From: a virus
Lineage: Duplodnaviria; Heunggongvirae; Uroviricota; Caudoviricetes
Length of the DNA: 9,540 nt
IMG/VR virus record: IMGVR_UViG_2537562192_000011
Strand: one strand, 5' to 3'
In this document: positions 1 through 3,000 of the stretch, piece after piece
Numbering within the stretch: the first letter of the stretch is position 1
Layout of the letters: every line of letters starts with the position of its first letter
Program-made: the position numbers

Positions 1-3000
1 TTAACGCCGTAACCGCTCCGGCTTTTTCCAGTGGTACGTAATTTTTTCTTTCTCCCGATACAGTTCAACGCGGCGATTGTAGGCCAGCATTTCCAGAACG
101 CGGATCCGTATGTCGCGCATATCCGCATCATTAAGCTGGATACCATCACGGCGCATCACCTCAGCAACAACACGCGCATAATTTTCGGCGGTCATGCTGT
201 CCGGCTGCGTGGCCTGTTCGTCAGCCTGCTGGCTGATTCCGGCGACGCGGCGGATTAATCCCAGTATTTCGGCTTCTGTCATTGTGCCCCCATCGCGCTG
301 GTGAAGAAAACAAGCTCAGATTTTTTGTAAAGAATCTGTCACGCTAAAAGATGTCGAACAAAAATTAACCACAATCATCATCTTTTTTGAATCAACCACA
401 TTAAAAACAACAGGTTACACACATGATGATGATGACGATAAAATCACAAAAATGCGCTTTTTTCCGCGCCGCCCGCCCCGTGTTCAGGCCCACCCCACCA
501 GGAGGACCCGCAAAAAAGGCGGCTGGTGCCGCCTTGTTGTCATAGTGAATCTGTCCCGCCTGATTTGACCATACCGCGATAATCCAGAGCTGCCACACCT
601 GCATCAATACGGACTTTCCAGGCCACGCCGTCAACGATAAAACCTTCCTGCTGTTCAAGGTAAGGCTCGTCATTGCCATCAAGATAAGCCACCTCGATTG
701 TGTCCGTTCCCTGTGCGGAAAGCATGTACCATTGTTTTTCGCTGATATCATCAAGGCGGGGATCGACGATGATATCAAGTAGCTTGTGATACGGGTTAAA
801 GATCCCGCTGTTTTTATCAGCCCCGAAAGGTGCGGTTGAGTTAATCATCTGCAACGCGCGATCTTCCAGTGCTGCCGGAACTAAAAGGAATTTAGGCGCA
901 ATATTCAGCACTTCGCCATTTTTGTCCTTCTGTGTGCGCATCAGGTGACGTGCTGCACTAAGTCCCGGTGTTGTCAGTCCTGCTTCAATCAGGTTGCTGT
1001 GTTTTTTGTCAAACAGCGCTATTCCGTCAGAAAGTTTTACGTTGCCTGTAAGCACCAGATTAACCAGATTTCCCACCGTTCTTGATGCAGCACGGCCCAT
1101 AGCCATTGGCACCGTTGATAACTGATCAAGGTCATCATTGATTATCGCCTGGCGGGTAATGCTGAAAATATTCCCGTAAGTAGCCAGCGCGATGGGTTCA
1201 CCGCGATCGCTGGTGGTGATGTATTTATATTCTGCCCCTTCCGGCACTTTGTTTAACGTTGAGAAGCCATTCATACCAACGCGGCGGGCTTCCCGGAAGT
1301 TTGAAAGGGAACCTTTTTTCGTCCACTGGCGGAATGTTTCGCCGCTGTGCTCCCAGCCTGCAAGCACTGATTTTTCAGCGCCACCAGCAAGGATATCGGT
1401 AAAATCGCTGCTGCTGTGGGTGAATGCCGCGTTTACTATCTGCGAGCGTGTGCTGTAGCTGCCCGTGCTTATACCACGATGGGTTAATGATGCCTGTGCC
1501 ATATCGAAAAGGCTCATCATGGCGTAAGGATTACCGCGTTCGGCCCGTTCGTGACCAAGACGCGCATTAAGCCCCTGGCGCATTGCATCGCCGGTTATGT
1601 TGCCGTTATCCGTGTACGCGTAGTAAAGATTTGCGGGGGTGGTTTTGTTTGTTGGCGTTGATTCTTTACCCATAGCGAGTAAAAGGCGTTCGCGTGCATT
1701 CTCAACGCTACATTCTGAATCAGCAAGACAACTTATAGCCAGGTCGTTATATCTTCCGTTGAACGTGCCAAACAATTCACGGATGCCGTTAAGTCGTTCC
1801 TGTTCGCCACTGCCAGTTTTCTGGCTGATCATGCTTTTAATTCTTTCCGGCATATTTGAAAAATCTCCGATTCGTTTTGATTCAATTCGGGCCATTGCTG
1901 TAATCGCGGGTATAACCTCATCTGCGAAGCCGTTAGCCTTACACTCATTGCCATCCATCCAGGTTTCCGCCTCCATCATGGCGGTGATTTCCTGTTTGCT
2001 CCTGCCCGTTCTTCCGGCGTAGGTTTCCGCCATCGTGTCGCCCAGCTTGTCCATCAGGTCAGCAAAGCGGCGAACGTCGCCCGACACTCCGGCAGTAACA
2101 CCACGGGGGGCATGTATCATCATCATCGCGTTTTCAGGTATAACGATGTGATCGCCACACATGGCAATAAACGAGGCCATAGAAGCCGCCATGCCTTCAA
2201 TGTGTACAATTTTCTTTGCCGGATGATTTTTCAGGGCGTTATAGATAGCCAGCCCTTCAAAGATGTCGCCACCAGGTGAATGGATGCGAAGATGGATTTC
2301 AGACGCATTACCACACGCGTTGATCTCGTCAGTAAGTGCCGATGCTTTTACACCGTACCCGCCGATCTCGTCATAAATGCGCACATAGACAACATCTGCC
2401 ATAGCCTTAATGGAAAACCATGTTTTCATAGCCAGACCCCTAACGTTGCCCTGTACCAGTATTCAACCGCGCTGCGTGTGATTTGTCCTTTCGTGGGTAC
2501 TGGCATACCCGGGTGATTATCTTTGATGAACTGCTGATAGCGTTCGATCTTCTCCATAGTTCCGGCGTCTATGTGTACCGTGGCACTTTTATCCGGCTTT
2601 CTGGTGTTGTTCTCTGGCATAAATCCGCCTCCGTTTTGATTAACGGGCATCATTATTGATCGATAAAAGTAATAGATAAATCATTTTCTACCTGAAAATC
2701 AGATTATGATTTTTCTGATTATTCTCAGAAAGGCAAAGTTATTGACGCATTTTTGCCATTGAAGCAGTATTAAGACTCGTCATCCTGGCGATAAAAACTC
2801 CTTTGTCGTGTAAAAGCGCCTCCGGTAACAGCAATCGGGGGCGCTTTTTTTGCGCCTGTTTTTTGTAAATGTTTTCGGGAACGTTCCGGTGATGAACAAA
2901 AAACAACCTGATTCGACACTAAAAATTTTTATTTCTCAACATATCAATAACTTATAGTGGTGGTGATGGTGCCATAAAAATCAAAAAATGCGCCTTTTTC

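What the first reader, a model, noticed from the sequence alone, without database searches (positions are those of the whole stretch)
2742..2851. Orphan plus-strand promoter and intrinsic terminator: candidate ~75-nt antisense sRNA facing the capsid-operon leader
Every neighbouring gene is on the minus strand, yet there is a plus-strand-specific terminator (the G-U pair in its stem would be a C-A mismatch on the other strand; T7 follows on the plus strand only) about 70 nt downstream of a plausible sigma70 promoter (TTGACG-17-CAGTAT). The predicted RNA would be antisense to the long 5' leader of the 64-aa/protease-capsid operon. This is reminiscent in concept of P4 CI and P1/P7 C4 immunity RNAs, but I cannot establish sequence homology.
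Basis: partly seen in the sequence, partly recalled or inferred. Interest (0 to 1): 0.65.

Follow-up and report, generated by a model that had tools for sequence, protein, structure and literature searches.

The report
Orphan terminator and candidate small RNA
A strong plus-strand transcription terminator, with a plausible but unproven promoter 45 bases upstream, sits between the DNA-packaging (cos) site and the capsid promoter of an E. coli phage satellite; it may encode a ~75-base small RNA, but that RNA would run away from the capsid operon rather than antisense to its leader.

Summary
The sequence features exist as described. The hairpin at 2816-2844 plus T7 scores as a strong intrinsic terminator on the plus strand only. 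A second, overlapping hairpin plus T6 follows it. TTGACG-17-CAGTAT lies 45 nt upstream, but sites this good occur about once per 1.9 kb per strand, so the promoter evidence is weak.

The context changes the interpretation. The window is an EcCICFT073-type PICI satellite. Directly beyond the terminators lies its cos site (2886-3053, about 90% identical to the region upstream of terS in lambdoid/Stx phages). Comparison of island lineages places the capsid-operon promoter at TTTATC-17-AATAAT (2680-2652), about 25 nt upstream of the 64-codon ORF. The putative RNA is therefore divergent from that promoter, with starts about 130 bp apart, and not antisense to a long leader.

A sister lineage lacks both promoter and plus-strand terminator and carries a strong sense-strand terminator instead. 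In the one diverged relative (SCU-111) both stem arms and the -35 are unchanged, while the RNA body is 67% identical. There is no Rfam match, no predicted target above background and no usable expression data.

Verdict: a real orphan terminator and an untested candidate sRNA (about 0.45). The antisense-to-leader model is unlikely, and there is no kinship with P1 C4 or P4 CI RNAs.

The parts
2742..2770 (+). Putative sigma70 promoter 'P_as': -35 TTGACG (2742-2747), 17-nt spacer, -10 CAGTAT (2765-2770; CAATAT in about half of the variants). Predicted start near 2777.
   Evidence: Sequence. The -35 is invariant in 27 unique IMG/VR and RefSeq variants and 4 metagenome variants and in diverged SCU-111, where the spacer is 71% identical. 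Chance expectation is about 6%. Not tested experimentally.
2777..2851 (+). Predicted non-coding transcript of about 75 nt (about 88 nt if it ends at the second terminator), with a weak 5' stem-loop at 2788-2809.
   Evidence: Fold -30.9 kcal/mol, z -5.2. No ATG. The body is only 67% identical in SCU-111. The 5' stem is kept in 7 of 8 pairs there, through wobble changes only, which is not significant.
2812..2851 (+). Intrinsic terminator 1: A4, stem 2816-2826 / 2834-2844 (with the T2821.G2839 wobble), 7-nt loop, T7 (T6 to T9 in variants).
   Evidence: d-score +33 on plus against -18 on minus. The nine core pairs of each arm (2816-2824 / 2836-2844) are unchanged, 18 of 18 positions, in SCU-111, where the loop is 73% identical. 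About 0.0007 is expected at the local 67% identity.
2839..2864 (+). Overlapping terminator-like hairpin 2: GGGCGC-T7-GCGCCT followed by G and T6-T8.
   Evidence: Listed by the terminator scan. Its d-score alone is -15. In SCU-111, C2853T keeps a G.U pair on the plus strand and gives A.C on the minus strand.
2697..2720 (.). Inverted repeat AATCAGA-N10-TCTGATT between the two divergent promoters; putative regulator site. The AATCTG motif sits 16 nt upstream of the capsid -35 in both island types.
   Evidence: The binding protein is unknown; this is inference.
2652..2680 (-). Capsid-operon promoter 'P_cap': -35 TTTATC (2680-2675), 17-nt spacer, -10 AATAAT (2657-2652). Predicted start near 2645, leader about 25 nt.
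   Evidence: The block is conserved across type A, type B and Kluyvera relatives and ends one base after the -10. The untranslated regions diverge after it. It is 100% identical in SCU-111.
2426..2620 (-). 64-codon ORF (PHROG 4934, unknown function), first gene of the capsid operon, preceded by GGAGG.
540..2429 (-). ClpP-like prohead protease / major capsid protein fusion gene.
   Evidence: Pfam Phage_capsid_4 7.8e-55 and CLP_protease 6.2e-33; RefSeq annotation.
2886..3053 (-). cos site of the island (cosQ-cosN-cosB by homology). The probable cleavage region is near 3001-3020 (CCACGGGGCGGGTCGGCGCGG on the minus strand).
   Evidence: 90% identical to the stretch between the lysis genes and terS of phages 1720a-02 and CP-1639, and 72-77% to mEp460-like and Stx phages. 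One mEp460-like record begins at the position equivalent to 3020.
3049..3070 (-). Minus-strand intrinsic terminator after the SSB gene (GCCGGAGCAATCCGGC + T6).
   Evidence: Sequence; conserved in all island types.

Best explanation
Positions 2742-2864 form a self-contained plus-strand mini transcription unit in the spacer between the cos site and the capsid-operon promoter of an EcCICFT073-type PICI satellite.

Proposed mechanism:
- RNA polymerase starts at a moderate sigma70 promoter (TTGACG-17-CAGTAT, start near 2777).
- It transcribes away from the capsid promoter. The two promoters are back to back, with starts about 130 bp apart and an inverted repeat between them.
- It is released at a strong intrinsic terminator (2812-2851), backed by a second overlapping hairpin and T-run, 22-35 bp before cos.
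- The product would be a non-coding RNA of about 75 nt with a variable 5' body and a conserved terminator with a long U tail. This is the layout of the short sRNAs carried by E. coli prophages.

Most likely it is a trans-acting sRNA of unknown target. Its terminators also keep this transcription out of cos.

Shown: the terminator's strength, strand bias and conservation; the neighbouring cos site; the proximal position of the capsid promoter (by comparison only).

Inferred: promoter activity, the existence of the RNA, and any function.
For: - The terminator works on the plus strand only: d-score +33 against -18, and -30.9 against -18.1 kcal/mol.
- There is no plus-strand gene upstream.
- In SCU-111 the local region is about 67% identical, yet the stem arms are unchanged at 18 of 18 positions, the -35 at 6 of 6 and the -10 at 5 of 6. 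The one -10 change is at tolerant position 3.
- Polymorphisms among 31 type-A variants avoid the -35 and -10 positions 1, 2 and 6.
- Promoter and plus-strand terminator are present together in type A and absent together in type B.
- Two substitutions favour the plus-strand reading: T2821.G2839, and C2853T in SCU-111, which gives G.U on plus and A.C on minus.
Against: - There are no expression data.
- The promoter is only an 8-of-12 match, and sites this good are common (10 per 19 kb).
- All type-A copies but one lineage are nearly identical, so conservation carries little weight.
- The RNA body is the least conserved part, and the anti-SD-like CUCCUU is lost in SCU-111. No conserved seed is visible.
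- No trans target scores above the shuffled background in the island or in a helper-type prophage.
- The G2838A variant (MFDS, 2011C-4251) weakens the plus-strand stem and is wobble-compatible on the minus strand.
- There is no Rfam match.
- A sister lineage does without the unit.
Confidence: 0.45

Rival explanations
1. The hairpin is only an insulator. It is a terminator at the boundary between cos and the capsid module that stops stray transcription (antisense from the capsid side, and weakly read-through from the SSB side) from crossing cos or entering the capsid promoter. The TTGACG-17-CAGTAT match is fortuitous or negligible, and there is no functional RNA.
For: - Type B islands and the Yersinia and Moellerella relatives have a terminator at the equivalent place between the upstream module and the capsid promoter.
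- The window's hairpin has A7 on one side and T7 on the other, as bidirectional terminators do.
- The promoter match is weak and expected by chance at about 6%.
- The RNA body is poorly conserved.
Against: - The terminators at the equivalent place in other lineages act on the sense strand. This one scores below threshold on that strand (d = -18; T4, or T3 in SCU-111) and strongly on the opposite strand, with a backup hairpin that also works on the plus strand only.
- No other source of plus-strand transcription is apparent.
- The -35 is kept where the flanks diverge.
Confidence: 0.3
2. One reading: a cis-antisense RNA that pairs with a long 5' leader of the 64-aa/protease-capsid mRNA and controls it, in the manner of an immunity RNA.
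For: - The RNA would be fully complementary to any minus-strand transcript crossing 2777-2851.
- The sense-strand hairpin is a poor terminator, so read-through from the SSB operon across cos could exist in type A.
Against: - The conserved promoter block lies about 25 nt upstream of the ORF, and conservation ends one base after its -10.
- Type B places a strong sense terminator (d = +35) between cos and that block, so the capsid mRNA cannot start further upstream there.
- No minus-strand promoter was found between 2690 and 3046.
- A strong terminator follows the SSB gene.
Confidence: 0.08
3. A DNA-level or sense-RNA element. Either it extends the packaging signal (bent or cruciform DNA next to cosB), or it is a sense-strand attenuator in which AGGCGC (2857-2852) competes with CGGAGGCGC (2824-2816) for GCGCCCCCG (2844-2836).
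For: - It lies 35 bp from the end of the cos homology, and the region is rich in A and T runs.
- Three mutually complementary segments exist.
- The G2838A variant is wobble-compatible on the minus strand.
Against: - The phage homology that carries cosB stops at 2886, and the phages go straight into terS about 30 bp later, so the hairpin is not part of the helper's cos.
- The hairpin arm occurs only in type-A islands.
- The minus-strand fold ignores the alternative pairing, and its z-score is only -1.6 to -2.8.
- The A and T runs are not helically phased.
Confidence: 0.07

Closest known systems
Short Hfq-binding sRNAs of E. coli prophages and islands (AgvB/EcOnc01, AsxR/EcOnc02, Esr41, Pas sRNAs)
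   Same: These are stand-alone genes of 50-85 nt on horizontally acquired DNA. They have their own promoter, a conserved 3' intrinsic terminator with a long U tail and a variable 5' part, and often lie in intergenic spots between phage modules (PMC4104026; bioRxiv 10.64898/2026.05.13.724894).
   Different: No sequence or structure match to the Rfam models of AgvB, AsxR, Esr41 or STnc100. The location is a PICI satellite next to cos, not the moron site downstream of PR'. Expression and Hfq binding are unknown, because strain Sakai, used for the Hfq cross-linking map, appears to lack this island.
SviR, the sRNA of the Vibrio cholerae satellite PLE
   Same: It is the precedent for a phage satellite encoding a regulatory small RNA (bioRxiv 10.1101/2022.04.08.487710, abstract only).
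   Different: A different satellite family and host, with no sequence relation tested. SviR has demonstrated targets in both PLE and phage ICP1; no target is known here.
P1/P7 C4 and P4 CI immunity RNAs
   Same: Small non-coding RNAs of a phage or satellite that control a neighbouring operon. The island also carries an Icd-like gene, as the P1 immI operon does.
   Different: From established knowledge, C4 and CI are processed out of the leader of the very operon they control, on the same strand, and pair with repeated target sequences there. This unit is on the opposite strand, has its own promoter and terminator, lies nowhere near the icd-like gene (6807-7007), and gives no Rfam match.
Bidirectional or insulating intrinsic terminators at phage module boundaries
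   Same: A GC-rich hairpin flanked by an A run and a T run, between two functional modules, at the position where sister islands carry a sense-strand terminator.
   Different: Both flanking operons run in the same direction, and the hairpin is predicted to be efficient only against that direction.

Membership tests
Rho-independent (intrinsic) terminator, plus strand | GC-rich stem-loop immediately followed by a U-rich tail; positive d'Aubenton-Carafa score | tested here: met
   11-bp stem, -19.2 kcal/mol, T7 tail, d = +33. Whole-RNA z-score -5.2.
Rho-independent (intrinsic) terminator, minus strand | The same features read on the other strand | tested here: not met
   C.A mismatch, -12.8 kcal/mol, T4 tail (T3 in SCU-111), d = -18. 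Weak termination cannot be excluded.
Sigma70 promoter | -35 and -10 hexamers close to consensus with 16-18 bp spacing, -11A and -7T present | tested here: inconclusive
   TTGACG (5 of 6), 17 bp, CAGTAT (3 of 6, with A2 and T6). Below the scan's 9-of-12 cut-off. Ten equal sites per 19 kb. Hexamers conserved in SCU-111.
Sigma70 promoter | A mapped transcription start | not testable with these tools
   No expression data for a strain carrying this island were available.
Cis-antisense RNA to the capsid-operon leader | An overlapping transcript from the opposite strand | tested here: not met
   Comparative mapping puts the capsid promoter at 2680-2652 and the start near 2645, about 130 bp from the putative RNA start and divergent to it. 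This is by inference, not by experiment.
C4 / CI immunity RNA (Rfam C4 family) | Match to the family covariance model | tested here: not met
   No such match in the whole window at E up to 1, or in 2640-2900 at E up to 10.
C4 / CI immunity RNA (Rfam C4 family) | Processed from the leader of the controlled operon, on the same strand, with complementary target repeats | tested here: not met
   Opposite strand, own promoter and terminator. No complementary site elsewhere in the island scores above the shuffled background.
Known enterobacterial island sRNAs (AgvB, AsxR, Esr41, STnc100 and others in Rfam) | Match to the family covariance model at the gathering score | tested here: not met
   The best local hits reach 13-24 bits against gathering scores of 40-114 and reflect the terminator only.
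Hfq-dependent trans-acting sRNA (as a class) | Terminator hairpin with a U tail of at least 6-7, plus a conserved single-stranded seed | tested here: inconclusive
   The U tail of 7-9 is met. No conserved seed appears between the window and SCU-111. Hfq binding is not testable here.
PICI satellite of the EcCICFT073 type (the host element) | About 10 kb; integrase at one end; AlpA-like regulator; primase-replicase; cos site resembling the helper's; capsid-protein homologue; no lysis or tail genes | tested here: met
   Pfam and PHROGs hits (the AlpA match is weak, E = 0.003). RefSeq annotation of an identical copy next to tRNA-Pro. cos homology. Family description in PMC6092414. Induction and transfer were not tested.

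The most novel reading that the evidence does not exclude
The unit is a genuine satellite-encoded sRNA gene wired back to back with the capsid promoter through a shared operator, so one regulator switches between sRNA and capsid expression. The RNA acts in trans on helper-phage or host transcripts. It would be the first riboregulator described for E. coli PICIs, with its variable 5' part tuned to different targets in different lineages.
Probability: 0.15. Interest if true: 0.55.

Novelty: new member of a known kind. Interest (0 to 1): 0.3.

Why it matters
If the RNA is real, it would add a riboregulator to the E. coli PICI satellites, whose control has so far been described in terms of proteins (AlpA, Rpp). 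It would also give a simple handle on how the capsid module and the cos site are insulated from each other. If it is only a terminator, it is ordinary genome punctuation. Either way, the useful corrections are that the neighbouring sequence is the island's cos site and that the capsid operon has a short leader, not a long one.

Tried and rejected
1. Rfam, whole window and local relaxed search: sub-threshold terminator look-alikes only.
2. Hfq cross-linking catalogue of O157:H7 Sakai (PMC4104026). I hoped to find a peak here, but prophages Sp9 and Sp6 have intact terL genes and no island. Sakai is also absent from the 51 records with 100% identity that include other O157:H7 strains. The data set therefore cannot test the RNA.
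3. Esr41 and the Pas sRNAs. Esr41 lies on SpLE1 and has an Rfam model that does not match. PasB occurs in 24 phage genomes, whereas this segment hit no phage record, so identity is unlikely. Their sequences were not compared directly.
4. Search for more diverged copies:
   - Capsid-protein relatives in other genera have different upstream regions.
   - A promoter-pattern scan and a hairpin-arm scan of IMG/VR, and an unbiased capsid-promoter scan of IMG/VR and metagenomes, gave only near-identical type-A copies plus type B.
   - SCU-111 and 2012C-4221 remain the single diverged lineage.
5. Trans-target scan of the 5' 40 nt against the island, an O157 helper-type prophage and phage 1720a-02. The best non-self duplexes (-28 to -34 kcal/mol) fall inside the shuffled range (-28 to -38).
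6. A leader peptide on the minus strand (14 codons from 2782): the Shine-Dalgarno spacing is poor and the ORF is absent in SCU-111, so it was rejected.
7. A minus-strand promoter TTTATC-17-TAATAC at about 2795-2767: not conserved in SCU-111, so it was rejected.

Full report
**Observation**

- TTGACG (2742-2747), a 17-nt spacer and CAGTAT (2765-2770).
- An A4 run (2812-2815).
- A stem of arms 2816-2826 and 2834-2844 that includes the T2821.G2839 wobble.
- T7 (2845-2851).

Strand bias of the hairpin:
- The 75-nt plus-strand RNA folds at -30.9 kcal/mol (z = -5.2; 0 of 200 shuffles as stable).
- The complementary RNA reaches only -18.1 kcal/mol, has a C.A mismatch and is followed by T4.
- The d'Aubenton-Carafa score is +33 on the plus strand and -18 on the minus strand.

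A second, overlapping plus-strand hairpin (GGGCGC-T7-GCGCCT, 2839-2857) followed by T6 was picked up by the consensus scan.

The promoter is weaker evidence. It matches 8 of 12 consensus positions, below the scan's cut-off. Ten sites at least as good occur in the 19 kb of both strands, so one within about 110 nt upstream of a given terminator is expected about 6% of the time.

**What the window is**

- Minus-strand genes: integrase, an AlpA-like regulator (weak match), an Icd-like protein, DUF4222, a D5-type primase, SSB, a 64-codon ORF and a ClpP-protease/major-capsid fusion.
- An identical copy lies next to tRNA-Pro in E. coli 2012EL-2448. It spans about 10 kb and has no lysis or tail genes.
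- This is the organisation of the Gram-negative PICIs typified by EcCICFT073, which also carry a capsid homologue and cos sites (PMC6092414).
- In O157:H7 strain ECP19-198 a near-identical relative of this island sits inside the terL gene of a lambdoid prophage whose own head gene is likewise a protease-capsid fusion.

Window 2886-3053 is about 90% identical to the stretch between the lysis genes and terS of phages 1720a-02 and CP-1639, and 72-77% identical to mEp460-like and Stx phages. One mEp460-like record begins at the position equivalent to 3020.

This is the island's cos site. The phage homology ends at 2886, and in the phage terS follows within about 30 bp. The hairpin at 2812-2864 is therefore island-specific and is not part of the helper's cos. 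A minus-strand terminator (3049-3070) follows the SSB gene on the other side of cos.

**Where the capsid mRNA starts**

I collected the region upstream of the 64-codon ORF from RefSeq E. coli genomes, from IMG/VR, from metagenomes and from relatives in Kluyvera, Yersinia and Moellerella.

Two E. coli types emerge:
- Type A is like the window. It is present in 144 of 5,426 complete genomes.
- Type B is like RM8082, EC42405 and pZ1323HEC0475-3.

Both types, and Kluyvera, share the block TTTATC/TTTACT-N17-AATAAT/AATTAT. Conservation stops one base after the -10, and the untranslated regions that follow differ between lineages.

In type B a strong sense-strand terminator (GCCGGATTTTTTCCGGC-T7, d = +35) lies about 50 nt upstream of this -35. 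The Yersinia and Moellerella relatives also have sense terminators about 110 nt upstream of the start codon.

The capsid operon therefore most probably starts near 2645, with a leader of about 25 nt. The putative plus-strand RNA starts about 130 bp away and runs in the opposite direction. The two promoters flank an inverted repeat (AATCAGA-N10-TCTGATT, 2697-2720). Its AATCTG half-site keeps the same distance from the capsid -35 in both types. This contradicts the 'long leader' premise. The contradiction rests on comparison, not on transcript mapping.

**Is the plus-strand unit real?**

In favour:
- The terminator is efficient on the plus strand only, and there is no plus-strand gene for it to serve.
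- Promoter and terminator are present together in type A and absent together in type B.
- In the one diverged lineage (SCU-111 and 2012C-4221) the segment is about 67% identical. Even so, both stem arms are unchanged (18 of 18 positions; about 0.0007 expected), the -35 is unchanged (6 of 6; about 0.09 expected), and the -10 differs only at position 3.
- Polymorphisms among 31 type-A variants avoid the -35 and the critical -10 positions.
- C2853T in SCU-111 preserves the second hairpin only when it is read on the plus strand.

Against:
- There are no expression data.
- The promoter is mediocre.
- Type-A copies are nearly clonal.
- The RNA body is the least conserved part, and no seed is conserved.
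- No target stands out.
- The G2838A variant weakens the plus-strand stem.

Rfam gives nothing at threshold. The published Hfq map of O157:H7 Sakai cannot be used, because that strain appears to lack the island.

**Mechanism, with probabilities**

| Explanation | Probability |
|---|---|
| Short divergent transcript from P_as, ended at tandem terminators at the edge of cos: a candidate trans-acting sRNA whose terminators also shield cos | about 0.45 |
| Pure insulator terminator with a fortuitous promoter match | about 0.30 |
| A DNA-level or sense-strand attenuator element | about 0.07 |
| Unassigned | about 0.10 |

**Comparison with known systems**

- The layout resembles the short prophage sRNAs of pathogenic E. 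coli (AgvB, AsxR, Esr41, Pas RNAs), but it matches none of their models.
- PLE's SviR is a precedent for a satellite sRNA in another family.
- The C4/CI analogy fails on every testable criterion: model match, strand, processing from the controlled leader, and target repeats.

**Verdict**

This is a real and well-formed orphan terminator with a plausible promoter. It is worth a Northern blot or a look at existing RNA-seq data, but it is of modest interest. If real, it would be a new member of a known kind. The proposed antisense mechanism is unlikely.

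Noticed in passing
window 2886-3053: The island's cos site. It is about 90% identical to the segment between the lysis genes and terS of lambdoid/Stx phages (1720a-02, CP-1639) and includes the helper-like cosB. This island would therefore be packaged by the helper terminase directly. No Rpp-like gene (about 144 aa) is seen in the window.
   Followed up: partly
window 2652-2720 (minus strand): Phylogenetically footprinted capsid-operon promoter (TTTATC-17-AATAAT) with an upstream AATCTG motif and inverted repeat. 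The weak -35 suggests that it depends on an activator.
   Followed up: partly
L026 8885-21437 (E. coli O157:H7 ECP19-198): In some O157:H7 strains the satellite is integrated inside the terL gene of a lambdoid prophage, splitting it. That prophage's head gene is itself a ClpP-protease/capsid fusion homologous to the island's gene and is interrupted by IS1203.
   Followed up: partly
L029 (NZ_CP148328.1, 10,790 bp, circular): A record annotated as a plasmid is a complete relative of this island: integrase, primase with GGTGAACAG-type iterons downstream, cos and a capsid fusion. It also carries its own DUF1441 (TerS-like) gene and tail-gene fragments. It may be an excised, circularised satellite.
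   Followed up: no
L062 (IMG/VR 2693429549_000020), upstream of the 64-codon ORF: In this type-B relative the SSB terminator is fused directly to the sequence that follows the second terminator, so cos is missing. This looks like a deletion by recombination between the two similar terminators (GCCGGA...TCCGGC-Tn) that flank cos in type B.
   Followed up: no
window 7002-7140 (+), opposite the start of the Icd-like gene (6807-7007, minus): A structured intergenic region. It has a sub-threshold SymR-like Rfam hit (7002-7075, 25.9 bits, E = 0.17), a plus-strand hairpin with a T run (7050-7071 + TGTTTTTT), and a long inverted repeat (GTGCAAGTCACCT...AGGTGACTTGCAC) followed by T7 (7117-7133). It may be an antisense or leader RNA of the icd-like operon. 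This, rather than the finding, is where a C4-like immunity RNA would be expected.
   Followed up: no
window 7035-7799 (minus): The 254-codon ORF in the mechanical ORF list is probably not a gene. RefSeq annotates two small plus-strand genes (YlcI/YnfO family at 7192-7371 and a hypothetical at 7429-7632) and a minus-strand HTH gene (7754-7960) there, and Pfam finds nothing in the long ORF.
   Followed up: partly
window 3022-3034: A run of nine C on the plus strand just beside the presumed cosN. It is replaced by GCCACCCCC or other variants in other type-A islands, so this part of cos is variable.
   Followed up: no
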